A stretch of 37,546 nt of DNA, from positions 1 to 37,546 of the forward strand of contig CACZII010000005.1 of NCBI GenBank assembly GCA_902781185.1. Direction: 5' to 3'. This DNA is from Fibrobacter succinogenes. GTDB taxonomy: Bacteria; Fibrobacterota; Fibrobacteria; Fibrobacterales; Fibrobacteraceae. Position numbers and translations under genes: made by a program. Shown here piece after piece: positions 16,489-35,741 of this stretch; the stretch's first letter is position 1, and every line of letters begins with the position of its first letter. The notes under the pieces are model-generated. The model was not told the DNA's origin. It saw nothing but the letters and a program-made list of their open reading frames with translations, and searched no databases.

Positions 16489-16490
16489 TA

Positions 16491-17213: not shown

Positions 17214-17259
17214 GGGATGTCCCTTTTTCGCTTATTACCCCAAAAAAGATAGCAAACAA

Positions 17260-19523: not shown

Positions 19524-19533
19524 ATCTTTTCCA

Positions 19534-20727: not shown

Positions 20728-20742
20728 AAAAGCCCCCACCAC

Positions 20743-22038
20743 CTAGCCTAACTTTTCCAACGATTCATCTTGTTTTTTTACAGGATTCCAAAATCTTGAA
20801 AAAATAACCCAAAAGACTATAGCGTATGCCAGATCAACAACAATCTTCTGATCCATGCCAAAACCGAAAATTCCGTATATTACCACATTTCGGGCATAAT
20901 AGAACATAATAAAATGGCACAAAAAAGAATTCTTCAACTTCTTAACAAAGCGGGCCACCAAGGCTAAAACAATGACCACAACATAAGACCCAATAACGCC
21001 AAATTCCATGTAAAGATCACCGAATAGGGTTTTAAAGTAATACATATTAACCCCATAGATATGCGTCCAAAATTCGCGCAGACCTTCCGCCCCGTATTTA
21101 GAGTCGGGAAGTTCAAGTCCACCCACCCATTCGAGTACTTTTGGGAAAAAACGAACACCATATGTATGAACATCCGTAGAATTCCAATAAACCAATCCCA
21201 AATTCAAGAATGGTTCACCAAAATAGCGGAAAATTCTAAACACCGCCACATCAGAATCACCTTTAGCTCGCGCAACAGAAACAACCAAGGCGTAAAACAC
21301 CAGACCAAGAAGAACCAAAATTACAAACGCATATAACAGCTTTTTCATCTTAACGGGAATTTCACTACTAAAATTCAAATAAATGTATATCATGATAAAG
21401 AAGTCGAAGAACATGCCTCCCCGACTGCCATTCAAAATAGGCGGAATTACATAAGCGCAGAACCCCAATACTAGGAATAGCAAAGCCATCATAGCCTGCT
21501 GGTTCTTTGAAATACGATAAAACTGAAGATAGAAAAACACTGGCATCACGCAAATGGAAAGCCTTCTTAAAATTTTAGATATTATTACCTCTACATCAGA
21601 TCCATATCTTAAACCCAAATCCCCGGAAGCACTCATGTAATACGCATCTCCCGCATCAGTAACAAGTCCGAATTGGAATCCATATAGGTAAAAAAGCAGG
21701 TGTGCCAAGATTAAGAACAAAAAGACAACAGAACACCGGGAAACACGTCGTTTTTCCCACCCCAATTCAAATTTTGGTATTGCCTTCAATGGATAAAGAA
21801 CAACAGCCATCATGACGAACATAAGAGCATATGGAATAAAGCTCAAATATTCCATACTGCGGTGGTCCGATATTTCGTCTTGGTATAAGCCTATTTCAAA
21901 GACAAACACACCTATACAGGCAACGACAAAATACATTGCCACCGAGAAAATGTAGAACGCACTACACTCATCGCGATTGCGGAAACTCCAAAAAAGCCAA
22001 AGTCCGTATAATACTATGTTGGCAACAAAAATTTCCAT
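20743..22038 (-). CDS. wzy: Polysaccharide polymerase
   Basis: About 10-11 hydrophobic segments, GSRGG motif, LYMEFG, low GC, capsule-locus context. Confidence 0.75.
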   Translation of the reverse strand: MEIFVANIVLYGLWLFWSFRNRDECSAFYIFSVAMYFVVACIGVFVFEIGLYQDEISDHRSMEYLSFIPYALMFVMMAVVLYPLKAIPKFELGWEKRRVSRCSVVFLFLILAHLLFYLYGFQFGLVTDAGDAYYMSASGDLGLRYGSDVEVIISKILRRLSICVMPVFFYLQFYRISKNQQAMMALLFLVLGFCAYVIPPILNGSRGGMFFDFFIMIYIYLNFSSEIPVKMKKLLYAFVILVLLGLVFYALVVSVARAKGDSDVAVFRIFRYFGEPFLNLGLVYWNSTDVHTYGVRFFPKVLEWVGGLELPDSKYGAEGLREFWTHIYGVNMYYFKTLFGDLYMEFGVIGSYVVVIVLALVARFVKKLKNSFLCHFIMFYYARNVVIYGIFGFGMDQKIVVDLAYAIVFWVIFSRFWNPVKKQDESLEKLG

Positions 22039-22100
22039 AAACAGTTAGCAACCCACAAATACTTTTATATATAATTTAGCTCTTTATCTGTCTCCGCTCA

Positions 22101-22916
22101 CTAAACATTCCTATATATCTTGTAATTATGGGCAGGTTTCCTCTGTTCTACAGGAGGCATTACCATATAATCGCCATAAATATCCCGGAGCAGCTTATCG
22201 TAATTTTTGGGAGCCTTAACTTTAATACCTTCAAATTCTAGATATTCGTAGTCCATAAAGCACTCTTTCGGCTTGGGGCAAAACGGTTCTTCCCAAGTGT
22301 AGCATTCCACATAATCACTATCCTCAAAAGAATACATCTTCGACAAATTCTTCAGTTTTTTTAAATAAAACGCCATCGGGAAAAGGTACGAAAACAGATA
22401 CACTAGATAATTTGGAATATTTACCAAAAGATGCGCAGATTTATAGTATTTTTTTGCTCGCTGAAAACGGCAGCACTTTTTCCAAAGTTTTTCCCTGGGG
22501 AGAATTTTCCGTTTAGCCCTTGAAATATTTTTCCCAAGACCATCCAAGGGATATACATCTATGAAAAGGCCCAGACTTACGTTATGAGCAGCCGTTTCCA
22601 TCCTGAATCGCGTATCACAAAAACGCGGAATCCCGTAAGGGTAACCAGGAGAATTTTCAAAATCAAAAAGTTTGTACGGTAAAAGAGCAGCGGCATTTGT
22701 TTTACAATAATCGACAAACTTGTCAAATTCAGGACGGGTCATCCAAATATCAAAATCATCGTCCCAAGGGATATACCCCTTATGACGAGCGGCCCCAATC
22801 AACGTTCCATACGCAACAAAGTAGTTTATATGAATCTCATCACAAATCTGGATTATCTTTCTTAAGAGGCCTAACGTTTCCTGTTGTATTTCCTTAAGTT
22901 CTAATTCCTTTTGCAT
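22101..22916 (-). CDS. licD: LicD-family phosphotransferase
   Basis: YGTLIGAARHKGYIPWDDDFDIWMTR, FIDVYPLD, YGDYMVMPP. Confidence 0.93.
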   Translation of the reverse strand: MQKELELKEIQQETLGLLRKIIQICDEIHINYFVAYGTLIGAARHKGYIPWDDDFDIWMTRPEFDKFVDYCKTNAAALLPYKLFDFENSPGYPYGIPRFCDTRFRMETAAHNVSLGLFIDVYPLDGLGKNISRAKRKILPREKLWKKCCRFQRAKKYYKSAHLLVNIPNYLVYLFSYLFPMAFYLKKLKNLSKMYSFEDSDYVECYTWEEPFCPKPKECFMDYEYLEFEGIKVKAPKNYDKLLRDIYGDYMVMPPVEQRKPAHNYKIYRNV

Positions 22917-24334
22917 ACCTGAAGCTTCCTTAATTTCTTCTTTATGAACCCAAAACTACGCTCTTCGAAGAAAAGTAGTAAAAAACACAATGTTGCAGCA
23001 ATCGCCCACCGAACAAACAATGCATCTATGAAAAGCCTCCCTGCAAAAATGACAAAAAACACCAACAAGCTTATCAGCAGTATTTTTTTCGTATCAAACA
23101 AGGACTTTCCTTCGATTCTATATGCCAATATATAATGGAACGTAAAATACAAGACGTAAGTCACAAGAGTCGTATATGCAGCAGCAATATATCCATATTT
23201 CGTGATGAAAATGAAATTCAGTACGATATTCAAAAGCGCCGCCGAAACTGTTCCTAAAGCAATAAATTTCGTTTTCTCATAATAGTATTCTACTGAAGCA
23301 GGGATATTGTACAAAAAAACAAAAAAGCCCGCCCCAACCACCGGCATAACGCTGTATACCGCGTCATGATAAGAACTTGGCGCCAAAAGACGAACTATCT
23401 CGGGACTAATCAGAATGAGGACAGCATTGAACAAGGCCATTAAGGATATATATATCGTGCTTGTCTTTTTTATGGATTCTAAATCATCAGAATGCCTTTT
23501 TTCGTAAAACCAAGGTCCCCACGCATTGTCTAACGATTGCAAAGTCACATGATATATGGTGTATATTGTATAACTAAAGCTGTATATACCCGCCTGTGCA
23601 GTTCCTATCATCCTATATATCATCACACGATCAAACTGAGAAAGAATTGTTTGACTCAACCCATGGGGAACAATAGGCAAACTGTATCGTATGCCCCAAT
23701 TCAAAAAACTTCTGTAGTTACATGGTCTCGCTTTTTTTATAAAACCAATGGAGATAACCAGACCTACTAGAAAAACAGGTAGAGTTGCCCCTAAAATACG
23801 TCCCATATAGGCTGAAGAGGCAAAGAAAGTCTTTATTAAGATAATGGATAACGCTATAGAGGACACGGCATTTGTTGCAGCAACAAGCAAATATTTCTGA
23901 AATTTGTACTGAAGCCCTACATAAGCATTAAAACAGCAGATAACCGCATACCCAAAACAACATGGCACCAATAAATAGATACACCTTCTTTCAAGTCCAA
24001 GAATATTTTCGAACACCCCGGAAAACAGCAAAAAAACGGCTATAAAAATCGCAACCATAAAGTACAACAACAGCATCGTCGTAGAGACATAGTTGTCAAA
24101 TAAATTTTTGCCATCCATATCTCCGTACTTATATTTTGCATTTTTATAGCTGCTGTGTATAGCTAAGCCAAGAAGAACCATACAAATGGATTCACTTGCC
24201 GTAAATGTATTGAAAGTTCCATAATCACTTGGCGTTAGCAGGTGCGTAAAAATAGGAATTGTCAAAAATGACAATCCTTTCAGCATATAGTTGCCAATAA
24301 CGTATCCCAGACCTGCCTTAATCGCCTTTGACAT
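22901..24334 (-). CDS. wzx: Polysaccharide flippase
   Basis: IPIFTHLLTPSDYG, FDRVMI, AGIYSFSY, YGYIAAAYTT; multi-TM MOP pattern. Confidence 0.9.
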   Translation of the reverse strand: MSKAIKAGLGYVIGNYMLKGLSFLTIPIFTHLLTPSDYGTFNTFTASESICMVLLGLAIHSSYKNAKYKYGDMDGKNLFDNYVSTTMLLLYFMVAIFIAVFLLFSGVFENILGLERRCIYLLVPCCFGYAVICCFNAYVGLQYKFQKYLLVAATNAVSSIALSIILIKTFFASSAYMGRILGATLPVFLVGLVISIGFIKKARPCNYRSFLNWGIRYSLPIVPHGLSQTILSQFDRVMIYRMIGTAQAGIYSFSYTIYTIYHVTLQSLDNAWGPWFYEKRHSDDLESIKKTSTIYISLMALFNAVLILISPEIVRLLAPSSYHDAVYSVMPVVGAGFFVFLYNIPASVEYYYEKTKFIALGTVSAALLNIVLNFIFITKYGYIAAAYTTLVTYVLYFTFHYILAYRIEGKSLFDTKKILLISLLVFFVIFAGRLFIDALFVRWAIAATLCFLLLFFEERSFGFIKKKLRKLQVCKRN

Positions 24335-24352
24335 ATTCCACGCCAGTGTTCC

Positions 24353-25252
24353 TTACCATTCGATAAATATCTTTCGATTGGTAGTATAAATATCGTGATA
24401 ATGTCTCAAACGGAAAAAGACATTCGAAATTTTTCCACGCAACGTCCTTATGTTGTCTCTATATTTTGGGACATATTCCAAAAACGCCTTCTGAACAGAG
24501 GAAATGTCTGCTATTCTTTCTTGAATGGCCGCCGCCAACGGAACTCTATCTACCCTTTCCCGATTCTTTTTCAAATGCACTAACTTTAAAAAGGATCTCC
24601 AGTGAGGCCGATGAGAAGCATTTTTCCCATGTATACGATGTCTTGTAATAACAAACTTTTCATAATGCAAGCCTTTGCTAAAACACGCCAAGGCCGCAAA
24701 CCACGTATCATGATACAGAACATTTTGAGGAATTGGCAATGCTTTTTTCAAAAAAATTGCTCGAATAAGCATCGAAGCACCCTGAAAACAAGAGCTCCCA
24801 TAAAAAATGCGATATGCCTTCGCTAACGAACTACCCGAGCAATCATAAAAGTAGTCAGCCTCACTCAAAGACATTCCTATTTCTCTACCATCGCCGTCAA
24901 TCAATACAGCGTCACCACAGGCGATATCGTTATCTCCTATGACATCCAGAAGCTTCTTTAAGTGTTCCTTTTCCCAAATATCGTCTTGGTCTGAAAGAGC
25001 AATATAATCGCCTTTACATAGGGATATCGCTTTTTCAAAGTTCTTTTTGAACCCCAAATTTGAAGAATTCCTGTAGCAATGAAGTCTAGAGTCCTTTTCT
25101 TCATTCTGTTTTAAAAGGGCCCATGTACCATCAGTCGAGCAGTCATCGCAAACAATGATTTCAATGTCGCTATAATTCTGGTTAAAAATGGAGTCTAACT
25201 GTTCCTGTAAGAACCGCTCTCCATTATATGTCGCCATTGCCACAGAAATCAT
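24353..25252 (-). CDS. GT2 glycosyltransferase
   Basis: ISVAMATYNGE, DDCSTD, LSDQDDIW, HDTW. Confidence 0.93.
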   Translation of the reverse strand: MISVAMATYNGERFLQEQLDSIFNQNYSDIEIIVCDDCSTDGTWALLKQNEEKDSRLHCYRNSSNLGFKKNFEKAISLCKGDYIALSDQDDIWEKEHLKKLLDVIGDNDIACGDAVLIDGDGREIGMSLSEADYFYDCSGSSLAKAYRIFYGSSCFQGASMLIRAIFLKKALPIPQNVLYHDTWFAALACFSKGLHYEKFVITRHRIHGKNASHRPHWRSFLKLVHLKKNRERVDRVPLAAAIQERIADISSVQKAFLEYVPKYRDNIRTLRGKISNVFFRLRHYHDIYTTNRKIFIEW

Positions 25253-25304: not shown

Positions 25305-26480
25305 CTAAGATACGAACGGCTCGATAATATTCTTGATGATAAAGTCGGCCGTCTTCTCGATGTCTTCGAACGCGACGCGCTTCGGCAAATCGACGTTGAA
25401 AGCCTTCTTCACCTTCGCGACGAGTTCGTCGGTATAGACGAGCGTACCGTTTTCCACGTTCTCGATGCCGTCGCAGTAAATAGACTTGCGGTTTGCAGCA
25501 CGCATGTCATCCATGCCAAAGAGCGAAGTATCGAAAGAGACTTCCGCCTTCGCACCGTCAATGAGTACCGGGTAGCCACCGATTTCGCCATCGACGCCGG
25601 GCGCATGTACCTTGGTCACCGTCTTTTCGCGGAGAGCGGTCAAGATGGAATCGATGATGTTGAAGTTGCTCGAAGCGTTCATCATGTTGCGCTTCTGGTC
25701 CACGGGCATCGGGATGGAGCAGGCGGCCAGCACTTCGGCCTGGTCAAACGGCAAATCCTTGCCATCCTTCTTGAAATTCAGGAGCAGCGTCTGGCCCTCA
25801 GCGTGACCTTCCTTCGATATCACCACGTCGTGGAAATGGCTCACCGCAAGTGTCACATCGATATCGTTCAGGTTGTCGATGTTGTACTTTTCGGCCATGA
25901 AGAACTTCATGCGCGGAATCAGGTGGTTCAGGTTACCGCTACCGAAATCAAAGTAAGTCTTGCCCGCAGACTTGAGCCAGGGGATCACGGCGTCGGAATA
26001 CGAGGTGTTGATGGTGACGGCGTTCGAGCCAGTCTTTTCGTAAGCGGCCATGATGTTCTTCGCATAACGGATAGAAAGCGGGGACCAGATGCCGTAAGCG
26101 CGCAGGTTGCTCCACGAGATGCTCCCGTACTTGAGGCCCGAATACACGCGGCTGCTGTTCACGATAAAGTCGGGGTTTGCCTTCTTGATTGTCGCGGCGA
26201 TGCTGTCGACATCGTTCAGGTCGCAGTCGCCGAGAATTTCAATCTGGCTGCGCAGTTCGCGACGGATTGTCGCTGCCGTGCGGACGATGTTCACGTCCAT
26301 CTGCATCTTAGCGGCATTGCGGCCCGCGACCACGATTTTCAGCTGCGGGTCACGGAGGCTCACCAAAAAGTCGAGCAGGAACGTACCGACGCTCCCGAGT
26401 CCGATAATCATAATCGTAATCGTCTCGTTCTTTTCGACCTTGGACTTGAGCAAGGCAATTTTCTTGTTCAGGATATCCAT
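25305..26480 (-). CDS. NAD(P)-binding oxidoreductase of unknown function (saccharopine dehydrogenase/LDH-like Rossmann N-terminus)
   Basis: True start MDILNKK at 26480, 2 nt after the upstream stop; IIGLGSVG, VVAGRN, INTSYSD, APGVDGEIGGYPV. Confidence 0.7.
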   Translation of the reverse strand: MDILNKKIALLKSKVEKNETITIMIIGLGSVGTFLLDFLVSLRDPQLKIVVAGRNAAKMQMDVNIVRTAATIRRELRSQIEILGDCDLNDVDSIAATIKKANPDFIVNSSRVYSGLKYGSISWSNLRAYGIWSPLSIRYAKNIMAAYEKTGSNAVTINTSYSDAVIPWLKSAGKTYFDFGSGNLNHLIPRMKFFMAEKYNIDNLNDIDVTLAVSHFHDVVISKEGHAEGQTLLLNFKKDGKDLPFDQAEVLAACSIPMPVDQKRNMMNASSNFNIIDSILTALREKTVTKVHAPGVDGEIGGYPVLIDGAKAEVSFDTSLFGMDDMRAANRKSIYCDGIENVENGTLVYTDELVAKVKKAFNVDLPKRVAFEDIEKTADFIIKNIIEPFVS

Positions 26481-26482
26481 AC

Positions 26483-27226
26483 TTACTCCATAAGTTCGCG
26501 GACAATGTTGTAGTCCGCAACGGTGTTGCAATTGAACCAAGCGTCGAATGTGACTACGTCGTACTCTTCGCGGGAAAGCTTGTTGAAATACGCTTGGATA
26601 ATCTCGAGGTTCGTGCCCTGGAGCTGCTTCTCGGTCAGGGATGCGACGGCCTCGTACAGCTTTTCTGCCGACTGGAACTTCCACATCTGCGCAGAATTGA
26701 ATACCGCCAGGAACGGCTCCGGAATCGTGAGCGAAGAATGATTCGTGTCGTACAGGTAATGCGGGCGGCCATCCGTCGATACGTAAAGCGCCACGGCCTT
26801 GTTCGAATAGATGGGTTCGCGATTGATCGTGAGCACGCTTTTTTCGCTATCGTAAACCGGCTTGAAATTTTCTTTCAAGAAGAACAGGTCGCCTTCAACG
26901 AAGGTGACATCGCCCGGTTCCTTCACGGCCTCGATGCCCTTGTACAGGCTGTAGCCCGAACCGTAGTCCTTGAAGTGCTCGTTATAAACCAGTTCAATCT
27001 TGTCGCCGTAGGCTTGGAGGTTTTCCTTCACATATTCTTCAAGAGCAGAATAGAGGTAGCCGCCCACGATGATGTACTTGTCGTATTCACCGCAGTTTTT
27101 GATAAGCTGGTTCAACAGCGCAAACTTCGGGGAATCCTTATAGTAAAGGCACTTCAGGGTTTCCTTTTCCGTGTCCCTGTTAAAGCGGGTTGCCGTCCCG
27201 GCAACGGTAATAATCAGGTACTTCAT
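26483..27226 (-). CDS. LicC/PntC-like nucleotidyltransferase
   Basis: VAGTATRF, IIVGGY, YNEHFKDYGSGYSL, VEGDLFF, WFNCNTVADY resemble the LicC GT-A cytidylyltransferase pattern. Confidence 0.7.
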   Translation of the reverse strand: MKYLIITVAGTATRFNRDTEKETLKCLYYKDSPKFALLNQLIKNCGEYDKYIIVGGYLYSALEEYVKENLQAYGDKIELVYNEHFKDYGSGYSLYKGIEAVKEPGDVTFVEGDLFFLKENFKPVYDSEKSVLTINREPIYSNKAVALYVSTDGRPHYLYDTNHSSLTIPEPFLAVFNSAQMWKFQSAEKLYEAVASLTEKQLQGTNLEIIQAYFNKLSREEYDVVTFDAWFNCNTVADYNIVRELME

Positions 27227-28221
27227 CTTTCAATACTCTTCACGCACATTTCAAGGCCTTCGTCGAGAGTCACAATGGGTTTCCAGTGAGTACGCGTACG
27301 AATCTTGTCGGTATTGAGCAGGCGACGTTCCGGGTCGGACTTGCGGAAACCTTCGAACTTGATTTTCACGTCGTCCATGCCCATCTTCTTCGCAATCAGT
27401 TTCACCAGATCCACAATGGAGATTTCCTCTTCGGTCGCGACGTTATAGACAGTACCGTCGAGAGCCTCGGGCGATTCCATGAGTTCCATCACGGCGCGGC
27501 AGCTGTCGATGTTGTGGAGGAACGTACGCTTGTTAACCTTCGAATTCTCGAGCAGCGTGACTTCGGGCTTTTCGAGAAGGTTGTTGATGATGTGCGGGAT
27601 AATGTGGTCGGCAAAGCGTTCATGTTTGCTGTACACGTTCGCAAAGCGGATGGAGCAGCCCTTGATTTTGCCCTTGTCCACGGCATCCTTCATGAAAAAT
27701 TCCGTAAGCAACTTGCCCACCGCATAGCTCGTGCGCTGGCTATGTTCCGCCGTCGCCATGACCAAGAAATCGTCTTCGCGGACGCCGCCGTTCGCGTTCC
27801 ACGACTGCATGGAATACACTTCGGAGGTGGAGCAGTTGATGTAGGTGTCGGCACCGAGGGCGATTGCCATTTCAAGGAAGGTCTTCATCGAGATGACGTT
27901 CGTCTGGAACGTATGTTCCACTTCGTAGAAATGCTTCGTGTGGACAACCGCAGCGCAGTTGATAAACACCAGGCGGCCGGAGTATGAACCCTTGAGGCTC
28001 TTCACCTTGTCGGCGACAGCGGCCATGTTTTCGGCATTGTTGATATCGTATTCGAAAAAGATAAAGTCATCGCGACCGACTAGGTCCTTGACCGTGTCGA
28101 TGGAACTGGCGAAGAAGTTGTCAAAACCGACAACGATGTTTTCTTCTTTCAGCAGCTGGTGCGAAAGTTCACTGCCGGTCATGCCGGTGGCACCACTTAT
28201 GACATACAGATTTTTCTTCAT
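27223..28221 (-). CDS. Extended SDR (NAD-dependent epimerase/dehydratase/decarboxylase-like)
   Basis: ISGATGMTG, DNF, STSEVY, YAVGK (YxxxK), RFANVY. Confidence 0.85.
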   Translation of the reverse strand: MKKNLYVISGATGMTGSELSHQLLKEENIVVGFDNFFASSIDTVKDLVGRDDFIFFEYDINNAENMAAVADKVKSLKGSYSGRLVFINCAAVVHTKHFYEVEHTFQTNVISMKTFLEMAIALGADTYINCSTSEVYSMQSWNANGGVREDDFLVMATAEHSQRTSYAVGKLLTEFFMKDAVDKGKIKGCSIRFANVYSKHERFADHIIPHIINNLLEKPEVTLLENSKVNKRTFLHNIDSCRAVMELMESPEALDGTVYNVATEEEISIVDLVKLIAKKMGMDDVKIKFEGFRKSDPERRLLNTDKIRTRTHWKPIVTLDEGLEMCVKSIER

Positions 28222-28234
28222 GTTAAGCCTCTGT

Positions 28235-28963
28235 TTAAATTCCTAAAGTCAGACGATCCTTGTAGAACACATCTACCTCGTCCGTATAAAGTTCCTGTTC
28301 CGCCACGATGTCGTACGGAACACAAACATGCTCGTATTCCGTCGTCTCGGTATCGAGAATTCCAAACTGCGCGCAAGGATTAATGTTGCGCGGCTGCCCC
28401 ACAGATCCGGGATTAATAAAGACAGTCTTCTTCTTGTTTCTCGTGCTCGGGGAATCCGCCCTGAAAAGCACTTCGAAGTAATGGCACAAATGGGAATGGG
28501 CCGTCAGTACAAAATCGTACGGGGCGTATTCTTCACGCGTAAGTTCTACAGGCGTAAACTTGCCCCAGTACGGGTCACCCATAATGCCATGCACTAGTAG
28601 AAACTTCTTGCCGTCGATTTCCAGGGAACAAGTACCGTCGCGGTTCATCCTGTTGTTGATAAAGTCGATGGATTCCTGCGAAAGGCGCTTTTGCGTATAA
28701 TGGAGGATGGCGCGCCCACGGTCTGTCGCGAAACGAGTCGTGTCGTTGTCCATGACCGCTTTCTCGTGGTTTCCCCAGATTTTCGCGATAAACTTGTCAT
28801 CCATTTCGCGGACCATGTCCACGATTTCGTTCGGACGCATGCCGTAATTAACTAGGTCGCCCAACAGCACAAACTTGTCAACATTGCGACGTCCGACTTC
28901 CTCGAGCACCGCATTCAATGCCGTCACGTTCGCATGGATATCCGACAGCAGGGCGAGTCGCAT
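28235..28963 (-). CDS. Calcineurin-like metallophosphoesterase
   Basis: SDIHAN, LGDLVNYG, GNHE, VHG, AHSH, NPGSVGQPR. Confidence 0.92.
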   Translation of the reverse strand: MRLALLSDIHANVTALNAVLEEVGRRNVDKFVLLGDLVNYGMRPNEIVDMVREMDDKFIAKIWGNHEKAVMDNDTTRFATDRGRAILHYTQKRLSQESIDFINNRMNRDGTCSLEIDGKKFLLVHGIMGDPYWGKFTPVELTREEYAPYDFVLTAHSHLCHYFEVLFRADSPSTRNKKKTVFINPGSVGQPRNINPCAQFGILDTETTEYEHVCVPYDIVAEQELYTDEVDVFYKDRLTLGI

Positions 28964-28965
28964 TC

Positions 28966-30093
28966 TTATTTCCTCAGGAACTCCATGAGAGAGTTCTTGT
29001 TTTCGATAGGCGTGGTAGTCGGGCGGCCCAAGTCCTTGCGGTTGCCCTTCTTCACCTTGACTTCGAGGAGCACGGGGCCTTCCATACTGCGCAACTTGCC
29101 CAGCGATTCAGCAAGCGATTCCTTGCTGTCAGCGGTCAGAGCATCGCGATAACCCACGGCCTTCGCGACAGCGGGCAGGTCGATCTTGAGGCCTACCGTC
29201 GGCTGGCCGCCCACGGAGTCGTGCGCGCCGTTGTTGAACACCACGTGAACGTAGTTTGCGGGAGACTTGCTCGCGACAATCGCCATGGAACCCATGTGCA
29301 TGATGGTCGCGCCGTCACCGTCAAAGCACCATACCTTGCGGTCTTCCTTTTCCATCGCGATGCCAAGCGCAATCTGCGAGGCGTGTCCCATGGAGCCCAC
29401 CGTCAAAAAGTCGCGCTCGTGACCTTCACACTTCTGGGCGCGGTATTCAAAAAGTTCGCGGCTGATCATGCCAGTGGTAGAGACAATCACGTCCTTTTCG
29501 CCGAGCGCAGCAGCCACAGTCTGGATAGCTTCTTCGCGGCTCATCGTGAGGTCGTTTTTCTCGACGCTCTGGAGCTTGTAATCCTCGAAGGTGTCCTTCT
29601 CGATGACAAGCGCATAGACCTCGCCCGTTTCCTTCATCGTCTTGACGGCCTTCGCAATCTGCTTTGCCGCCTTGTCCTCTTCCTTGCAAAGCACGTCAAA
29701 GTTCACGCCCATGGTGTTCAGGATGCCTGTAGTCACCTTACCCTGCTTCACATGCTGGGGCTCGTCGTGAACGCCCGGACGGCCACGCCAGCCAATGAGA
29801 AGCAGTACGGGAATGTTGTAGACTTCCTTGTCGGTAAGCGAAGCGAGCGGGTTGATGATGTTGCCTTCGCCCGAGTTCTGCATGTACACGACACCGATGT
29901 TTCCCGTAGCCAGGTGGTAGCCAGCAGCAAGGCCCACGGCAGCACCTTCGTTCGCGGCAATCACATTATGCCTTGCATCCTTATTGTCGGCAATGTAGGC
30001 ACAAATGTTCTTGAGCAAGGAATCGGGAACCCCGGCAAAAAAATCAATGCCGTAGGAACCGAGTGTGTCGATAAAAAACTTCGGACTAATCAT
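28966..30093 (-). CDS. aepY: Phosphonopyruvate decarboxylase
   Basis: FAGVPDSLLK, ANEGAAVGLAAG, YMQNSG, DEPQH, VGSMGHASQ, ThDP motif DGDG...NN, HDSVGGQPT. Confidence 0.96.
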   Translation of the reverse strand: MISPKFFIDTLGSYGIDFFAGVPDSLLKNICAYIADNKDARHNVIAANEGAAVGLAAGYHLATGNIGVVYMQNSGEGNIINPLASLTDKEVYNIPVLLLIGWRGRPGVHDEPQHVKQGKVTTGILNTMGVNFDVLCKEEDKAAKQIAKAVKTMKETGEVYALVIEKDTFEDYKLQSVEKNDLTMSREEAIQTVAAALGEKDVIVSTTGMISRELFEYRAQKCEGHERDFLTVGSMGHASQIALGIAMEKEDRKVWCFDGDGATIMHMGSMAIVASKSPANYVHVVFNNGAHDSVGGQPTVGLKIDLPAVAKAVGYRDALTADSKESLAESLGKLRSMEGPVLLEVKVKKGNRKDLGRPTTTPIENKNSLMEFLRK

Positions 30094-30106
30094 AAGTAGA
30101 ATACCG

Positions 30107-31417
30107 TTACTTCTTCATCGTTCCGGGAATGAGGTTCAGAATCTGCTTGATGGGCATACAGTAGTCGTTGGAAGCCTCAAGGCTACGACTGTGCGTCAGG
30201 ATAGATTCGGCGCACTTCACCATGGCAGGGTATGCAGACCTCAGCATGTGGTTTGCATAGATGACCACGTTGATGCCCCAGGTCGCCAGTTCCTCTTCGG
30301 TAAACTGGTTGTAGGTCGTGGGCACGGCGACAATCGGCGTATGCGCATCCTTTTCGCGAAAGCGCTTGCAGAATTCCTTGATATCCTCGCCGCTCTTGTC
30401 CTTGGAATGAATCATGATGCCGTCGGTACCGGCAGCCACATAGGCATGGCAGCGTTCCAGCGCATCGTCGACGGACTTGCCCGCAATCAGGGATTCGCAG
30501 CGGGAAATCACCATGAAGTCATTCGTAATCTGTGCGTCCTTGCCTGCACGAATCTTGGTGCAGAAGCCCTCGATGGTGTCCTGCGTCTGGATGGCGTCAG
30601 TCCCGAACAGGGAGTTCTGCTTGAGCCCAACCTTGTCCTCGATAATAACCGCAGAGATGCCGAGGCGTTCCAGCGTGCGGACCGTAAAACCGAAATGTTC
30701 CACCTTTCCACCCGTGTCACCATCAAAAATGACTGGCTTGGTCGTGACTTCAAGCGTATCGTTCAGGTCGTGCAGGCGGGTCGTGAGGTCCACCGCCTCG
30801 ATATCCGGCTTGCCCTTGCTGGTAGAATCGGTAAGGGACGAAGACCACATGCCATCGAACTCGCGGATGCAGCCGTTTATCTCAACACTCGTGTGTTCGG
30901 CAATAAGACCGGTAAGGCCGTTATGCGATTCCAGAATACGGACAATCGGCTTTGCCGCAATCAGACGGCGCAGCGAAGAAAGCCTAGCCTGCGGGGTCGT
31001 GCCCAGCGATTCCATTTCCTTCTTGAGGCCGGTCGAGGTAATGCCCTGCGTGTAAGGGATTTCAATCACCTTGCCACCCTGAGCTTCCATGACCTTGAAC
31101 ACCTCATCACGGATATACTTGTCCGGGCCGTAGAGCCAGTCGTCACCGTGGATGATGTAGTCCGGCTTGTACTTTTTCAGGTTCTCGACATAGCTCCATT
31201 CATCCTGAGGCACGACCTTCGAGACTCCGCGGATGTTCTCGATGACATTCTTGCGTTGTTCGTAGTTCAGGTATGGAAGACGCTTGTGCGTCGCAATCGC
31301 CTTGTCCGTAAAAAGCCCAATCATCACATCGCCATACTTGGCGCCCTCATTGATGATATTGATAAGACCTGGGTGCATAATGTCCCCGATCATTCCTAGA
31401 TAAACAGTCTTTGGCAT
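30107..31417 (-). CDS. aepX: Phosphoenolpyruvate mutase with N-terminal cytidylyltransferase-like domain
   Basis: PepM signature EDKVGLKQNS (EDKx5NS), DGDTGG, YANHMLR; N-terminal domain with MHPGL, HGDDW, PYTQGITST. Confidence 0.96.
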   Translation of the reverse strand: MPKTVYLGMIGDIMHPGLINIINEGAKYGDVMIGLFTDKAIATHKRLPYLNYEQRKNVIENIRGVSKVVPQDEWSYVENLKKYKPDYIIHGDDWLYGPDKYIRDEVFKVMEAQGGKVIEIPYTQGITSTGLKKEMESLGTTPQARLSSLRRLIAAKPIVRILESHNGLTGLIAEHTSVEINGCIREFDGMWSSSLTDSTSKGKPDIEAVDLTTRLHDLNDTLEVTTKPVIFDGDTGGKVEHFGFTVRTLERLGISAVIIEDKVGLKQNSLFGTDAIQTQDTIEGFCTKIRAGKDAQITNDFMVISRCESLIAGKSVDDALERCHAYVAAGTDGIMIHSKDKSGEDIKEFCKRFREKDAHTPIVAVPTTYNQFTEEELATWGINVVIYANHMLRSAYPAMVKCAESILTHSRSLEASNDYCMPIKQILNLIPGTMKK

Positions 31418-31447: not shown

Positions 31448-32209
31448 TTAAGACTTTACCCCAAATTTCCGCTTCAAGAAATTAAAGCCTTTCACAATCC
31501 AGTTCTGTTTTTCCATAAACATGCAGGGAATTTCCTTGTACTTTATGGAATTTGTTTCCAACCAAACATCTATTAGTCTTTCGCTTACAAAGCCAAATAC
31601 GCGAGAATCATTCTGGTTGTATTGAGAAATATCCAGCCGTTTTTCCAGTTCAAAAAGGATGTCGAACAGCCATTTACAATAACTATCGAACTTATCCTTT
31701 TTCATTATAAACATATTGAAACGATGGCCAATCGTTCTTTTCATGTAGGCATCATAGGCAGCCAAATACTCGGGATATTTCTCAGACAGGATCTGTCTTG
31801 TCGTATCCAAATCTATAGCATGGTGAGCATGGACATATTGCGAGTAATTTGACTCAATGAAGTAGTTCCTTGGTTTCGGCAAGATTACATCAACACCCTG
31901 AACTAGGGATTCCAATTCGGAAGCCGTTAAAATGGATGACCATTTATCTCTACCCGGCTTAGTAGAAAAATGCCTGCGGTAGTGGGACAGTCCGATATAT
32001 TCGGCATCCATGTTTTTCCAAGCCCAATAAAGACCGGTAAGTTCACAATAGTTTTTGTTCTTCACACTGATATTGTCGCCCACGTTGTCCATGGCGTAGC
32101 CCAAGGAATTCTTGCCCTCAGCACCAACCTGAACAGGAATATACATGGAATCCGTCGGCATCTGATACGCCTTGTGTGTTGCAACAATTATCTTAGCATT
32201 CAAGCTCAT
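31448..32209 (-). CDS. DUF4422-family glycosyltransferase (likely galactofuranosyltransferase)
   Basis: VATHK, DNISVKNKNYCELTGLYWAWKN, GLSHYRRHF, NMFI, GFVSERL; ATGA overlap with the upstream gene; glf nearby. Confidence 0.85.
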   Translation of the reverse strand: MSLNAKIIVATHKAYQMPTDSMYIPVQVGAEGKNSLGYAMDNVGDNISVKNKNYCELTGLYWAWKNMDAEYIGLSHYRRHFSTKPGRDKWSSILTASELESLVQGVDVILPKPRNYFIESNYSQYVHAHHAIDLDTTRQILSEKYPEYLAAYDAYMKRTIGHRFNMFIMKKDKFDSYCKWLFDILFELEKRLDISQYNQNDSRVFGFVSERLIDVWLETNSIKYKEIPCMFMEKQNWIVKGFNFLKRKFGVKS

Positions 32210-33168
32210 ACTAACTCTTTTTCTCCGCAATCCTTGAACCAGTCTCTAAAGGCATCCTTTAAAGAATACCCTAGCGGATAATCCCGCGCTAATTTTGCAC
32301 CATCAATGTTGGTGGACACCATGAGTTTCTTCACACGGGCGGGACATATACCTAAACCCAGTCCGCCAAGCATGCCACATACCGTCGCTGCAGCCATCAT
32401 CGGTTTTTGAGGAATGTACGGAATGTGACGGTTCATGCCAGTCGCTTCAAGCATAGTACTTGCAATCTGTTCTATGGTAAACGAAGGGAAATAACAGCAG
32501 TTGTAAAGCTGCACCCGATTTGCGTTTTCATTTTCGGCCATAGCAAGCATGACTCGTACCAAATCTTTCACATAGATGCAAGCCTTGATTGTATCTTTGC
32601 GGCCAGCATAGGCAAACTTGTGACCTTTCAAGCCCTTATACAAGCGAGTCATATTGCCATTCTCGCCCTTACCGAATACGATTCCCGGACGAACGATAGA
32701 AAGCCTATGGTTTTCGCCTTTAGCAGACCACTCTCGATGAATCTTTTCAGCAACCAACTTGGAAATTCCATAAGGCGTGTTGGGGGTCGGGAGAGTTTCT
32801 TCGGTCTTCAGTTCTTCAGCAGCGCCATAAGGGGCAATGCTGCTGGTGAATACGATGTTCTCTATGCCATTCTTTTCGGCAAAAGCGCAGACATTCTCTG
32901 CACCGCGGATGTTAGTTTCAAAATAGGCGTAATCAGGATGTCCAGGAGTGCGGTGAATGGCAGCGAAATTAAAGACAAGCGTATTCTTACCGAAACTTCC
33001 CTGCATTTCAATCGGTTTACGAACATCGATCTTTTGAGAGAATTCGGTGCCTTCAGCAAGCAAATCTGCAACATATATTTTCGCATCCGGATACTTTTCC
33101 CGAAGTAACCGCTGCATATGAGACCCAATGAATCCACACCCACCAAAAATCACAAAAGAATCAAACAT
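32206..33168 (-). CDS. NAD-dependent epimerase, Gnu-like (possible lipid-linked sugar 4-epimerase)
   Basis: FGGCGFIG, AAIHR, FTSSIAPYG, YGISK, REW, RPGIVFG..ENGN. Confidence 0.75.
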   Translation of the reverse strand: MFDSFVIFGGCGFIGSHMQRLLREKYPDAKIYVADLLAEGTEFSQKIDVRKPIEMQGSFGKNTLVFNFAAIHRTPGHPDYAYFETNIRGAENVCAFAEKNGIENIVFTSSIAPYGAAEELKTEETLPTPNTPYGISKLVAEKIHREWSAKGENHRLSIVRPGIVFGKGENGNMTRLYKGLKGHKFAYAGRKDTIKACIYVKDLVRVMLAMAENENANRVQLYNCCYFPSFTIEQIASTMLEATGMNRHIPYIPQKPMMAAATVCGMLGGLGLGICPARVKKLMVSTNIDGAKLARDYPLGYSLKDAFRDWFKDCGEKELV

Positions 33169-33170
33169 TT

Positions 33171-34295
33171 TTACCCGAACTCCTTCCCTACGCAGGCAAG
33201 AGCCTCCGCAATCACGTGATGCATGTCAAAATACTTGTACATTCCCAGACGGCCGCCAAAAATCACGTTTGCTTCTGCATCGGCCAAGGCCTTGTACTTG
33301 GCATAGAGCGCGTTGTTCTTTTCGTCGTTCATGGGGTAATAAGGCTCATCCCCACGCTTCCAAGTGGCAGGATACTCGCGAGTCACCACCGTATGGTCTG
33401 TGGCAAGGCCGCCCTGACAACCATATTCAAAATGTTTATGCTCAATGATACGGGTAAAGGGAACCTCTGCTTCCGTGTAATTGACTACGGCATTGCCCTG
33501 GTAATTTTCCTGGGGTAGGTCCTCCGTCTCAAAGCGGAGACTGCGATATTCCAATTCACCAAACTTGTAGTCGTAATACTCGTCAATCATACCCGTGAAA
33601 ACGATTTTTCGAGCGTCAGCAACTAGAGCACCACGTTCCTTGAAGAAATCCACCCCTAGACGAACCTCGACACCCTCCAGCATTTTTTCAACTATCTGAG
33701 TATAACCACCAACAGGGATCCCCTGGTACTTATCGTTAAAGTAATTGTTGTCGTAAACCAGACGCACGGGCAATCGCTTGATAATGAATGCCGGGAGCTC
33801 AGTACACTTGCGGCCCCACTGTTTCTCGGTATAGCCCTTGATGAGCTTTTCGTAGATATCGCGGCCAACCAGTGACAGCGCCTGTTCTTCTAGATTGGCA
33901 GGTTCACGGCCATTCAACGCGGCAACCGCTTCCGCCTTCTGCTCATCCAGCTTCGCCTGGGCTTCGGACGGAGTCCTGACCCCCCACATCTGGCTGAAGG
34001 TATTCATGTTGAAGGGCAGATTATACAGTTCTTTCTTATAGCGGGCCACTGGGCTATTGGTATAGCGATTGAACTCCGCGAACTGCTGGATATAGTCCCA
34101 GACTTCCTTGTTGCTGGTATGGAAAATGTGAGCACCAAACTTGTGTACATTTATACCACCCACATTTTCGGTGTAGACATTACCAGCAATGTGGGCACGC
34201 CGGTCTATTACGAGGACACTTTTCCCCCGCTTATGCGCTTCATGCGCAAAGACCGCTCCAAAAAGGCCTGCACCCACAACAAGGTAGTCAAACAT
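33171..34295 (-). CDS. glf: UDP-galactopyranose mutase
   Basis: VGAGLFG, HKFGAHIFHT, YTEKQWG, YFNDKYQGIP, RIIEHKHF, EPYYP, GRLGMYKYFDM. Confidence 0.97.
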   Translation of the reverse strand: MFDYLVVGAGLFGAVFAHEAHKRGKSVLVIDRRAHIAGNVYTENVGGINVHKFGAHIFHTSNKEVWDYIQQFAEFNRYTNSPVARYKKELYNLPFNMNTFSQMWGVRTPSEAQAKLDEQKAEAVAALNGREPANLEEQALSLVGRDIYEKLIKGYTEKQWGRKCTELPAFIIKRLPVRLVYDNNYFNDKYQGIPVGGYTQIVEKMLEGVEVRLGVDFFKERGALVADARKIVFTGMIDEYYDYKFGELEYRSLRFETEDLPQENYQGNAVVNYTEAEVPFTRIIEHKHFEYGCQGGLATDHTVVTREYPATWKRGDEPYYPMNDEKNNALYAKYKALADAEANVIFGGRLGMYKYFDMHHVIAEALACVGKEFG

Positions 34296-34297
34296 TT

Positions 34298-35668
34298 CTA
34301 CTCAGCCTTTCCCTTACCGATACTGGACACTTCGAAGCCAATCTTACGAAGAGCGTCAGCATCCAAGATGTTACGCCCATCAAACACGAAGGCCGGCTTG
34401 GCCATGCCCTTATAGATGCGTTTCCAATCCAGCTCAGCAAAGCACTTCCATTCGGTGCAGACCACCACAGCGTGGGCGCCTTCGGCGGCCTTGTACGGGT
34501 CTTCCTCAAACTGAACCTGGTCCAGCACGTCCTTCAGGTCGCGCTTGGCGTCGGGAATGGCCTTCGGATCGGTAACCACAGGCTGAGCATGCTCGTTGAG
34601 CAAGTCGCGGACCACCAGGTTGGCGGGGCTTTCGCGGGTATCACCTGTATTAGCCTTGAAGGCAAAGCCGAACACGGCGATCCTCTTGCTAGCAATGGTG
34701 TTGAACATGGTTTCCAGCATGCGATCCACCACACGGTGGGTCTGCCATTCGTTAATCTTCACCACAGATTCCCAGTAGGCAGCGACTTCGGGCAGTCCGT
34801 AATAGCCGCACAGGTACACCAGGTTCAAAATATCCTTCTTGAAGCAACTTCCGCCAAAGCCGATAGAGGCCTTGAGGAACTTCGGGCCAATACGGGTATC
34901 CTTGCCCATCACGTAGGCCACCTCATCTACGTCAGCCCCAGTCTTTTCGCAAAGGGCGCTAATGGAGTTGATGGAGCTGATGCGCTGAGCCAGGAAGGCA
35001 TTGGCAGTAAGCTTGGTAAGCTCGGAACTCCAGAGGTTCGTCGTCAAGATGCGCTCACGGGGAACCCAATGGGCATACACGTCCACCAACTTCTGGCAGG
35101 CGGCCAAGCCAGACTCCGTCTGGTGAGAGCCGATGAGCACGCGGTCCGGTTCGAAAAGGTCCTTGATGGCGGTGCCTTCAGCAAGGAACTCGGGGTTAGA
35201 GAGCACTTCAAAATGCAAGCCCTTGTCGTTGCTATTCAGAATCCGTTCCATGGCGGCGGCGGTACGCACCGGGAGTGTGGACTTTTCCACAATAATCTTC
35301 CCTTCGTTCGCCACTTCCAAAATGTTGCGAGCCGTCTTTTCCCAGTACTGCAGGTCAGAAGCCTTGCCAGCGCCATGGCCAAAGGTCTTCGTAGGTGTGT
35401 TCACGGAAACAAAGATGATATCTGCTTCCTTAATGGCCGCGGGAATGTCCGTGCTAAAGAAAAGATTCCTGCCACGGGCACGTTTTACCACATCATCCAG
35501 GCCAGGTTCAAAAATCGGAAGGTTGTCGCTATTCCAAGCGTCTATTCGGGCCTGGTTGATATCCACCACGGTCACTTTCACGTCGGGGCACTTGTCGGCA
35601 ATAACGGTCATGGTGGGGCCACCGACGTAGCCCGCGCCAATACAGAGAATTTTCGTATTGAAGCTCAT
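34298..35668 (-). CDS. ugd: UDP-glucose 6-dehydrogenase
   Basis: Start [19 protein letters not shown] at 35668; [43 protein letters not shown]. Confidence 0.96.
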
Positions 35669-35677
35669 AGTACCTAT

Positions 35678-35692
35678 AATGTAGAAAAAAAA
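35678..35692 (-). promoter_or_regulatory. Putative promoter of the capsule operon (T8-c-TACATT, 9 nt before the ugd ATG)
   Basis: Minus strand ttttttttcTACATTataggtactATG in the divergent ugd/SGNH spacer. Confidence 0.45.
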
Positions 35693-35741
35693 GGCTATCT
35701 TTATGCCCAAGGAACCAAGACGAGCAACCATAGAAGCAACC

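What the first reader, a model, noticed from the sequence alone, without database searches (positions are those of the whole stretch)
25305..31417. Six-gene phosphonate cassette inside a capsule locus with an unexplained route beyond phosphonoacetaldehyde
Seen: tightly coupled genes (gaps -4 to 13 nt) for PepM, phosphonopyruvate decarboxylase, a metallophosphoesterase, an extended SDR, a LicC/PntC-like nucleotidyltransferase and an uncharacterised Rossmann oxidoreductase, embedded in a wzx/wzy/wzc locus. Established: PepM + Ppd give phosphonoacetaldehyde (PnAA). Known glycan phosphonates then use a PLP transaminase (AepZ/PhnW, giving 2-aminoethylphosphonate) or an iron-type alcohol dehydrogenase (giving 2-hydroxyethylphosphonate), and PntC-type enzymes activate the product as a CMP conjugate. 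Neither a transaminase nor an Fe-ADH is in this window. Inference: the four extra enzymes define a different route. Options are reduction of PnAA or CMP-PnAA by a non-canonical reductase, oxidation to phosphonoacetate, or reductive condensation with an amine or sugar. The product could be an undescribed phosphonate substituent on a surface glycan.
Basis: partly seen in the sequence, partly recalled or inferred. Interest (0 to 1): 0.85.

Follow-up and report, generated by a model that had tools for sequence, protein, structure and literature searches.

The report
Serine-based route to capsule phosphonate HEAEP
Six linked genes in a capsule locus, shared with gut bacteria, methanogens and one Vibrio phage, likely make a known but unexplained surface phosphonate, N-(2-hydroxyethyl)-2-aminoethylphosphonate, by an undescribed route predicted to join phosphonoacetaldehyde to serine and then remove CO2 with a xylose-synthase-like enzyme.

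Summary
The six genes form a discrete module (25315-31417) in a probable Fibrobacter capsule locus. Among 63 related loci with enough flank, 59 hold all six genes. In the genus, the four tailoring genes replace pntC-aepZ directly after ppd; 0 of 21 genomes with the oxidoreductase have AepZ. Vibrio phage Va2 carries all six, scattered over 41 kb. The product is probably not undescribed: Li & Horsman 2022 flagged this cluster type and pointed to the N-hydroxyethyl-AEP (HEAEP) of the F. succinogenes polysaccharide, but the route is unsolved. New here: the oxidoreductase has an LDH/MDH fold with an altered catalytic site, and the SDR keeps all six active-site residues of UDP-xylose synthase although canonical UXS exists elsewhere. 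CMP-N-(phosphonoethyl)-L-serine maps atom for atom onto UDP-glucuronate. Best model (0.55): NADPH-dependent condensation of PnAA with (phospho)serine, dephosphorylation, CMP activation, UXS-type decarboxylation to CMP-HEAEP, then LicD transfer. No step after PnAA is tested. The scan met this cassette before in other genomes.

The parts
30107..31417 (-). PepM (PEP mutase, EDKVGLKQNS motif) with an N-terminal PF01467 cytidylyltransferase-like domain whose HxGH motif reads HPGL (possibly inactive)
   Evidence: motif definition from PMC6697681
28966..30093 (-). Phosphonopyruvate decarboxylase (Ppd), giving phosphonoacetaldehyde
   Evidence: TIGR03297 520.4 bits over cut-off 312.5
28235..28963 (-). 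Calcineurin-like metallophosphoesterase (MPE) with intact metal ligands and conserved R82 and R175; predicted to remove the O-phosphate of a phosphoserine adduct, or to edit CMP-phosphonates
   Evidence: PF12850; nearest solved 3rqz, 3qfm; residues shared with the phage copy
27223..28221 (-). Extended SDR with the full UDP-xylose synthase/ArnA fingerprint T132 S133 E134 Y166 K170 R300; predicted oxidative decarboxylase of CMP-N-(2-phosphonoethyl)serine
26483..27226 (-). DUF6564 protein, distant LicC/PntC-type nucleotidyltransferase; predicted phosphonate cytidylyltransferase
   Evidence: PF20202 310 bits, PF12804 19.5 bits; profile hits LicC 1jyk E 6.8e-5 and PntC-AEPT 6pd1 E 0.056
25305..26480 (-). 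Oxidoreductase (OXR, 391 aa) of LDH/MDH fold; G53-R54 suggests NADP(H); His215 matches the LDH catalytic His and R190 the substrate Arg; predicted reductive aminase for PnAA plus (phospho)serine
   Evidence: AF2 pLDDT 96.8; Foldseek and VIA Z 22.0 to MDH 9sc9, rmsd 3.4, 282 aligned; profile alignment to LDH; conservation
25315..31417 (-). Boundaries of the exchangeable six-gene DNA module (84-92% nucleotide identity to Fibrobacter loci with different flanks); swap point with pntC-aepZ at about 28964
   Evidence: blastn; GC3 contrast
22101..22916 (-). LicD-family phosphotransferase; candidate for transfer of the CMP-phosphonate to the glycan (it could instead serve the polyol-phosphate genes of this locus)
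   Evidence: PF04991; LicD hit in 55 of 77 related loci
15469..25252 (-). Host capsule genes downstream: GT2, wzx, licD, wzy, two TarF-like transferases, GDPD, IspD/TarI-like cytidylyltransferase, a second extended SDR
31448..35812 (-). Capsule genes upstream: ugd, glf, an extended SDR, a DUF4422 protein

Best explanation
The six genes likely make CMP-activated N-(2-hydroxyethyl)-2-aminoethylphosphonate (HEAEP) for a surface glycan, by a predicted route without a transaminase in which serine supplies both the nitrogen and the hydroxyethyl arm. Steps: (1) PepM and Ppd give phosphonoacetaldehyde (established family chemistry; membership shown). (2) The LDH/MDH-fold oxidoreductase condenses PnAA with O-phospho-L-serine or L-serine and reduces the imine with NADPH (inferred). 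(3) The metallophosphoesterase removes the O-phosphate (inferred; weakest step). (4) DUF6564 adds CMP to the phosphonate (inferred from LicC/PntC likeness and from replacing pntC). (5) The SDR runs the UDP-xylose synthase cycle on CMP-N-(2-phosphonoethyl)serine: it oxidises the serine hydroxyl, loses CO2 from the beta-oxo acid and re-reduces, giving CMP-HEAEP (inferred from residues and substrate mimicry). (6) A LicD-type enzyme transfers HEAEP to the capsule repeat (inferred). I put about 0.75 on HEAEP as product and 0.55 on this route.
For: Unit of selection: 62 of 63 full-flank loci hold all four tailoring genes and 59 of 63 hold all six, across Fibrobacter, Bacteroidales, Lachnospiraceae, Treponema and Methanobrevibacter, with ppd in changing positions. 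Phage Va2 holds all six, dispersed over 80.9-122.5 kb. Replacement: 0 of 21 OXR-bearing genomes of the genus have AepZ over cut-off; of 11 pepM genomes without OXR, 5 have aepZ beside pepM and 3 an Fe-ADH between pepM and ppd; DNA identity to the AEP loci stops at the ppd stop codon. Product: Li & Horsman link an S85 neighbourhood with PF12850, PF16363 and no AEPT to N-hydroxyethyl-AEP. SDR: the six hUXS1 residues named in PMC3438964 align to T132, S133, E134, Y166, K170, R300. They are present in 69 of 70 cassette rows (the 70th is truncated), in the phage copy, UXS and ArnA; Gmd has 5 of 6, RmlB 4, GalE 3. 5 of 5 cassette genomes tested have a separate canonical UXS at 53-56% identity; Ugd is in only 3 of 77 loci and not found in Va2. 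The phage SDR groups with the cassette SDRs (98/96). Reasoning, not a call: P-CH2-CH2-NH-CH(COO-)-CH2OH maps onto P-O1-C1-O5-C5(COO-)-C4-OH of UDP-glucuronate, and L-serine (S) matches C5 (S) (descriptors recalled). OXR: R111, K117, R190, K263 and R264 are invariant in cassette and phage, enough for a polyanionic substrate pair. Three rhizobial plasmid homologues sit beside alanine racemase, a HAD hydrolase and a DMT exporter, two of them also beside an FAD/2Fe-2S oxidase trio that I read as opine-oxidase-like.
Against: No enzyme was assayed. Fold search does not rank UXS above epimerases and dehydratases (Z 28-30.6, tied). The best PDB sequence hit of the SDR is a dTDP-glucose dehydratase. 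In the small tree the cassette clade is not sister to UXS/ArnA, and Bcs1-like reductase SDRs group with UXS. I know no LDH-fold imine reductase (recall). The paper states that the S85 polysaccharide is not definitively linked to its cluster; I could not read Vinogradov 2001 or fetch the named S85 record. Exceptions: L038 has aepZ and pntC inside the cassette; L077 lacks the SDR and has a class V aminotransferase near pepM; L029 has a choline/ethanolamine kinase inserted (L034 a homologue); L016 has a broken SDR and L074 broken pepM/ppd. 4 of 50 non-Fibrobacter cassette genomes have AepZ over cut-off, and 15 more have weaker class V hits. Va2 has no detectable LicD. Kin are not independent.
Confidence: 0.55

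Rival explanations
1. The product is HEAEP, but OXR condenses PnAA (or PnPy, as Li & Horsman wrote) directly with ethanolamine or phosphoethanolamine; MPE frees the hydroxyl and the SDR has a separate role.
For: This is the proposal in print. A choline/ethanolamine kinase plus a LicC-like gene is inserted in the cassette in L029, with homologues in L034. It needs the fewest steps.
Against: It leaves unexplained an SDR kept in 62 of 63 loci and in a phage with an intact decarboxylase fingerprint. No ethanolamine-supplying gene recurs among the neighbour clusters that were annotated. Ppd is retained in 60 of 63 loci, which argues against PnPy as substrate.
Confidence: 0.15
2. The cassette makes another phosphonate: HEP by non-canonical reduction of PnAA or CMP-PnAA (OXR or SDR as carbonyl reductase), or an undecarboxylated N-(phosphonoethyl)amino acid.
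For: An LDH/MDH fold is a carbonyl reductase scaffold and the catalytic His is kept. UXS-like SDRs can be simple reductases (Bcs1-type, recalled; such SDRs group with UXS). L077 lacks the SDR. The link of HEAEP to the cluster is unproven.
Against: Sister genomes make HEP-type products with a single Fe-ADH, so four genes are not needed. The nitrogen of HEAEP needs a source, and the closed genome G110 has the cassette and no AepZ match.
Confidence: 0.13
3. The SDR is a sugar-nucleotide decarboxylase or dehydratase (UDP-xylose or a related acceptor sugar), and the phosphonate is joined to a sugar rather than to serine.
For: Its nearest named relatives are 'UDP-glucuronic acid decarboxylase family' proteins and dehydratases. 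The window has ugd upstream.
Against: Identity to UXS is only 26-28%, while canonical UXS lies elsewhere in 5 of 5 genomes. Ugd is in 3 of 77 loci and not found in Va2. The SDR stays between MPE and DUF6564 across phyla whose glycan genes differ.
Confidence: 0.08
4. AEP is made by a transaminase elsewhere, and OXR acts as an opine-type dehydrogenase joining AEP to (phospho)hydroxypyruvate. This gives the same N-(phosphonoethyl)serine intermediate, and the later steps are unchanged.
For: A 2-oxo-acid substrate is the normal LDH geometry, and the Arg171 equivalent R190 is kept. L038 carries aepZ inside the cassette. 4 of 50 cassette genomes have AepZ and many have weaker class V aminotransferases. 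The own genome is 71.7% complete.
Against: 0 of 21 OXR genomes of the genus have AepZ over cut-off, including near-complete and closed ones. No AepZ hit in Va2.
Confidence: 0.07

Closest known systems
Unclassified 'post-Ppd other' neighbourhoods GCF 60 (F. succinogenes S85) and GCF 869/685 (archaea) of Li & Horsman 2022 (PMC8942020)
   Same: ppm and ppd with PF12850 and PF16363 genes, no AEPT; same genus; the paper points to N-hydroxyethyl-AEP on the S85 polysaccharide.
   Different: The section and supplement part I read assign no gene to a step, do not name the oxidoreductase or DUF6564, and propose ethanolamine plus PnPy. Here a serine/decarboxylase route is proposed. I could not compare the named S85 sequence.
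Phosphonyl tailoring (Pnt) pathway for AEP: Ppm, Ppd, AEPT, PntC (Rice et al. 2019, PMC6697681)
   Same: PepM-Ppd entry, a LicC-like cytidylyltransferase, LicD-like genes and a glycan locus. Sister genomes carry pntC-like plus aepZ at the same position.
   Different: No AEPT. DUF6564 has no blastp match to the Fibrobacter PntC-like protein at E 10. Three extra enzymes.
[quoted passage not shown]
   Same: Extended SDR fold; all six active-site residues named in PMC3438964 are kept.
   Different: 26-28% identity, a separate clade, canonical UXS present elsewhere. The predicted substrate is an acyclic CMP-phosphonate, not UDP-glucuronate.
L-lactate/malate dehydrogenase superfamily (including GH4)
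   Same: Whole-chain fold (Z 22.0, rmsd 3.4, 282 aligned to 9sc9; GH4 Z 19); catalytic His and substrate Arg positions kept.
   Different: 11-17% identity. The Asp of the His-Asp pair is His186, the Asn of the NP-D loop is Tyr161, and the cofactor Asp is replaced by Gly-Arg. A C=N reduction is predicted rather than C=O.
Fom1 of fosfomycin biosynthesis (PF01467 cytidylyltransferase fused to PEP mutase)
   Same: Same domain order in the window's PepM.
   Different: HxGH reads HPGL here and in 40 of 72 aligned rows, so the domain may be inactive. No Fe-ADH for HEP.

Membership tests
PEP mutase | TIGR02320 over cut-off and EDKxxxxxNS motif | tested here: met
   404.5 vs 319.55 bits; EDKVGLKQNS
Phosphonopyruvate decarboxylase | TIGR03297 over cut-off | tested here: met
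   520.4 vs 312.5 bits
AEP (Pnt) pathway | AEP transaminase (AepZ/PhnW) in the cluster or genome | tested here: not met
   None in the window or the 71.7%-complete genome; 0 of 21 OXR genomes of the genus over cut-off
AEP (Pnt) pathway | PntC-type (PF12804) cytidylyltransferase | tested here: inconclusive
   PF12804 19.5 bits, under cut-off 27; profile hits LicC E 6.8e-5 and PntC E 0.056; no blastp match to the sister PntC-like protein
HEP pathway (PhpC/FomC) | Fe-ADH beside pepM-ppd | tested here: not met
   0 of 77 loci with this query. Unlinked Fe-ADH matches occur in 90 of 101 genomes regardless of pepM, so genome-wide absence cannot be used.
Li & Horsman GCF 60/869 type | ppm + ppd + PF12850 + PF16363, no AEPT | tested here: met
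Li & Horsman GCF 60/869 type | Sequence identity to the named S85 cluster, and HEAEP in this organism's glycan | not testable with these tools
   The named record is not in the annotated collections; no chemistry possible; Vinogradov 2001 not held
UDP-xylose synthase / ArnA decarboxylases | Thr118, Ser119, Glu120, Tyr147, Lys151, Arg277 | tested here: met
   6 of 6; 69 of 70 cassette rows and the phage copy
UDP-xylose synthase / ArnA decarboxylases | Orthology to UXS (high identity, same clade) | tested here: not met
   26-28% against 53-56% for the canonical gene; own clade in an 18-row tree with long branches
UDP-xylose synthase / ArnA decarboxylases | Structure closer to UXS than to epimerases and dehydratases | tested here: inconclusive
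   Z 30.1 for 2b69, tied with epimerases at 30.6 and RmlB-type at 29.8
LDH/MDH superfamily | Two-domain LDH/MDH fold | tested here: met
LDH/MDH superfamily (true LDH or MDH) | His-Asp catalytic pair, Asn of the NP-D loop, NAD-selecting Asp (roles recalled) | tested here: not met
   His215 kept; Asp position is His186; Asn position is Tyr161; G53-R54 at the cofactor loop
Saccharopine / carboxyspermidine dehydrogenase | Whole-chain fold, beyond the NADP-binding N-terminus | tested here: not met
   PF03435 under cut-off and N-terminal only; Z 11.6 (4ina) and 9.9 (1e5l) against 22.0 for MDH
All six enzymes | Catalytic activity and substrates | not testable with these tools
   needs assays

The most novel reading that the evidence does not exclude
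The module is an eighth early branch of phosphonate biosynthesis built from two enzyme types not described before. One is an LDH/MDH-fold NADPH reductive aminase that joins an aldehyde to (phospho)serine. The other is a UDP-xylose-synthase-like SDR that decarboxylates an acyclic CMP-amino-acid phosphonate mimicking UDP-glucuronate, i.e. PLP-free serine decarboxylation. It is used on surfaces of gut bacteria and methanogens, and by a cultured Vibrio phage that has no LicD and may put the phosphonate on its DNA or virion.
Probability: 0.45. Interest if true: 0.85.

Novelty: new variant of a known kind. Interest (0 to 1): 0.66.

Why it matters
It would explain a surface phosphonate whose structure has been in print since 2001 without a pathway, and it assigns a testable step to each of four uncharacterised protein families. 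It would add two reaction types: imine reduction on an LDH scaffold and PLP-independent decarboxylation of an N-alkyl-serine by an SDR. The module is an exchangeable alternative to the AEP and HEP modules in one genus, so cultured strains give a natural control series. It also occurs in human and animal gut Bacteroidales and in methanogens. Phage Va2 offers a cultured virus carrying the whole set. The score is held down because the cluster type and probable product were already noted in print and all tailoring steps are inferred.

Tried and rejected
Saccharopine-dehydrogenase membership for OXR: rejected on fold. Single-sequence PDB search with OXR: no hit at E 10. Fold search to separate UXS from epimerases and dehydratases: tied. 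The T-S-E and R-x-x-Y motifs alone do not discriminate, since Gmd has both; only the set with R300 does. Genus-wide Fe-ADH search: uninformative, 90 of 101 match and none over cut-off. Context for the 30-44% identity OXR group: pattern scans of viral contigs and metagenome contigs found nothing, and two alignments were too diverse to scan; only Va2 was found. A single-sequence phage search with DUF6564 found nothing, although a profile found the Va2 copy. Two unannotated faecal 'phage' scaffolds with PepM were fetched but not analysed. Promoter and terminator scan: 16 and 11 sites against 11.7 and 13.2 expected, no signal. Expression: contigs from 4 RNA runs of 4 studies (4 of 24 listed) cover the module at 85% likeness or more, but not its flanks; these are relatives' contigs and may be DNA, so I do not count them. 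Paper searches found no biosynthetic study of HEAEP and no paper on phosphonate genes in Va2; most subscription journals are not searched. Two papers were not held. No complex prediction was run.


Full report
1. Observation. The six genes are real, on the minus strand, with gaps of 13, 2, 13, -4 and 2 nt. PepM and Ppd pass their curated cut-offs. The others are a PF12850 metallophosphoesterase (MPE), an extended SDR, a DUF6564 protein (NTP) and a 391-aa Rossmann protein (OXR, start 26480). PepM carries an N-terminal PF01467 domain whose HxGH motif reads HPGL; 40 of 72 aligned rows have this form and 22 keep HxGH. wzx, wzy, wzc, licD, ugd, glf, two TarF-like genes and an IspD-like gene surround the module. 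OXR homologues at 95-99% identity are named Fibrobacter, so the window is taken as Fibrobacter. The genome is 71.7% complete; it shows no AepZ (only a SufS-like hit) and one unlinked Fe-ADH.

2. The six genes are one unit. An OXR scan of GTDB genomes gave 77 loci in Fibrobacter, Bacteroidales, Lachnospiraceae, Treponema, Methanobrevibacter and a few others. I set aside 14 loci with under 5.5 kb upstream of OXR. Of the other 63, MPE and NTP are in 63, the SDR in 62, PepM in 61, Ppd in 60, and all six in 59. The order MPE-SDR-NTP-OXR is fixed while ppd moves. A LicD hit is in 55 of 77 loci, AepZ in 1, Fe-ADH in 0, Ugd in 3; L077 also has an under-cut-off class V aminotransferase near pepM. At DNA level the module runs from 25315 to 31417 at 84-92% identity to Fibrobacter loci with other flanks. 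Its GC3 is 0.63-0.77, against 0.39-0.49 for the downstream glycan genes. It is a native block set into an AT-rich capsule locus.

3. It replaces the known branches. In 101 genomes of the genus, PepM matches in 29, OXR in 21 and AepZ passes cut-off in 7. 18 of 21 OXR genomes have PepM and none has AepZ over cut-off (one, G095, has a weaker class V hit). Of the 11 pepM genomes without OXR, five have a pntC-like gene and aepZ beside pepM, three have an Fe-ADH between pepM and ppd, one has a pntC-like gene at a contig end, and two are fragments that I did not fetch. Identity to the AEP-type loci ends at the ppd stop codon. The closed genome G110 has a homologous capsule locus with the module and no AepZ match. 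Outside the genus, 4 of 50 cassette genomes have AepZ over cut-off and 15 more have weaker hits. Kin are not independent, so I give no statistics.

4. A phage has the whole set. Vibrio phage Va2 (MW073017.1) encodes PepM (109638), a Ppd-like TPP enzyme (104837), MPE (121782; 35.5% identity), the SDR (111676), DUF6564 (80916) and OXR (86429), dispersed among nucleotide-metabolism genes. No Ugd, LicD, AepZ, PntC or Fe-ADH hit was found in it. Six dispersed genes at about 27-36% identity argue for joint function rather than operon hitchhiking.

5. OXR. The AlphaFold2 model (88 sequences, pLDDT 96.8) matches malate and lactate dehydrogenases over the whole chain: Z 22.0, rmsd 3.4, 282 residues to 9sc9; GH4 glycosidases Z 19; saccharopine-dehydrogenase-type proteins only 11.6 and 9.9. 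The profile alignment to LDH puts His215 on the catalytic His and R190 on the substrate Arg. The partner Asp is His186, the loop Asn is Tyr161, and the cofactor loop is G53-R54, which suggests NADP(H) (LDH residue roles recalled). R111, K117, H186, R190, H215, K263 and R264 are invariant in cassette and phage. Of 17 plasmid hits I read 7. Three rhizobial ones lie beside alanine racemase, a HAD hydrolase and a DMT exporter, two of these also beside MmgE/PrpD and an FAD/2Fe-2S oxidase trio that I read as opine-oxidase-like. The other four lie in varied small-molecule or catabolic clusters. This is a weak hint that the family makes N-alkyl amino acids.

6. SDR. Eixelsberger et al. (PMC3438964, passages read) name Thr118, Ser119, Glu120, Tyr147, Lys151 and Arg277 as the hUXS1 active site, with Ser119, Glu120 and Arg277 distinctive of the UXS group. 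Counting along the alignment to 4lk3, these are T132, S133, E134, Y166, K170 and R300. The set is in 69 of 70 cassette rows, the phage SDR, an annotated UXS-family protein and E. coli ArnA; Gmd has 5, RmlB and Fcl 4, GalE 3. Yet the SDR is only 26-28% identical to UXS, and 5 of 5 cassette genomes tested have a canonical UXS at 53-56%. Against this reading: the fold search ties UXS with epimerases and dehydratases, the best PDB profile hit is RmlB, and the 18-row tree has long branches and does not join the cassette clade to UXS, though it joins the phage SDR to it at 98/96.

7. NTP and MPE. The DUF6564 profile hits LicC (E 6.8e-5) and T. denticola PntC-AEPT (E 0.056), and the gene stands where pntC stands in sister loci. 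MPE keeps all metal ligands plus R82 and R175 in cassette and phage; its nearest solved relatives are 3rqz and 3qfm. Its substrate is the least constrained.

8. Mechanism. Li & Horsman 2022 (PMC8942020; abstract, section 18, passages and part 1 of 2 of the supplement read; figures not visible) report that F. succinogenes makes an exopolysaccharide with an N-hydroxyethyl derivative of AEP (their ref. 49, Vinogradov 2001, not held). They note that AEPT is absent, suggest reductive amination with ethanolamine, and state that compound and cluster are not definitively linked. HEAEP needs an N-C2-OH unit. Serine supplies it if a carboxyl is lost, and a UXS cycle removes exactly such a carboxyl, beta to an oxidisable alcohol. 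In CMP-N-(2-phosphonoethyl)-L-serine the chain P-CH2-CH2-NH-CH(COO-)-CH2OH maps onto P-O1-C1-O5-C5(COO-)-C4-OH of UDP-glucuronate, with matching (S) configuration (my reasoning; descriptors recalled). The model is therefore: OXR joins PnAA and (phospho)serine; MPE removes the phosphate; DUF6564 adds CMP; the SDR decarboxylates to CMP-HEAEP; LicD transfers it. The first two enzymes are shown by family membership; all later steps are inferred. Confidence is 0.75 for the product and 0.55 for the route. Rivals: direct ethanolamine (0.15), another product such as HEP (0.13), a sugar-acting SDR (0.08), AEP plus hydroxypyruvate (0.07).

9. Comparison and novelty. It works like the Pnt pathway of Rice et al. 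2019 (PMC6697681, passages read) in entry, CMP activation and glycan context, but fails the AEPT test. It meets the GCF 60/869 description. Eight searches found no study of this route and none on Va2's phosphonate genes; subscription journals are largely outside the library. PMC13576164 (passages) did not bear on it. Earlier notes of this scan describe the same cassette in other genomes and one names HEAEP and the OXR as candidate; a word search for the serine/xylose-synthase reading found none. Verdict: a new variant of a known kind, with a probable known product and an unsolved, now testable route. Interest 0.66.

Noticed in passing
MW073017.1 80916-122525 (L116, L117): Cultured Vibrio phage Va2 encodes all six genes, dispersed near RNR, dUTPase and a nucleoside deoxyribosyltransferase-like gene. 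No LicD was found, so the acceptor (DNA, virion or host surface) is open. The record's product names around 111069-112713 appear shifted by one gene.
   Followed up: partly
L104, L105, L110 (rhizobial plasmids): Distant OXR homologue beside alr, a DMT exporter, a TIGR01459 HAD hydrolase and a C45 peptidase, in two cases also MmgE/PrpD and an FAD/2Fe-2S oxidase trio: possibly an undescribed opine-like synthesis and catabolism locus.
   Followed up: partly
L106:5480-13761 (Bacillus plasmid): OXR homologue within an MFS, three ATP-grasp genes, an aminotransferase and a HAD hydrolase: an uncharacterised small-peptide cluster.
   Followed up: no
L085-L094: Within one genus, three interchangeable modules accompany pepM-ppd: pntC-aepZ, an Fe-ADH, or the four-gene set.
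   Followed up: yes
L038, L029, L034, L077, L016, L074, L096/L097: Variants: aepZ and pntC inside the cassette (L038); choline/ethanolamine kinase, LicC-like and IspD-like genes inserted (L029, L034); SDR missing (L077); SDR broken (L016); pepM and ppd broken (L074); two degenerate copies with no pepM found in G091.
   Followed up: partly
P0024 and P0027 clusters: OXR homologues at about 34% identity lie on contigs of up to 121-133 kb, and P0036 of the same group reads like the Va2 protein; many of this group may be phage-encoded. Not verified.
   Followed up: partly
window 15469-20742: IspD/TarI-like cytidylyltransferase, a second extended SDR, GDPD and two TarF-like transferases suggest a CDP-polyol-phosphate-linked capsule backbone beside the phosphonate.
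   Followed up: no
window 12814-15472 (+) and 36947-37444 (-): Three CotH-family kinase genes; two interrupt the capsule locus on the opposite strand just before wzc.
   Followed up: no
window 1043-3360 (-): A 485-aa cysteine-rich protein with six ephrin-receptor-like repeats (PF07699) and a 295-aa ORF with no Pfam hit lie between the EF-Ts gene and a PF00696 kinase gene (probably pyrH).
   Followed up: no
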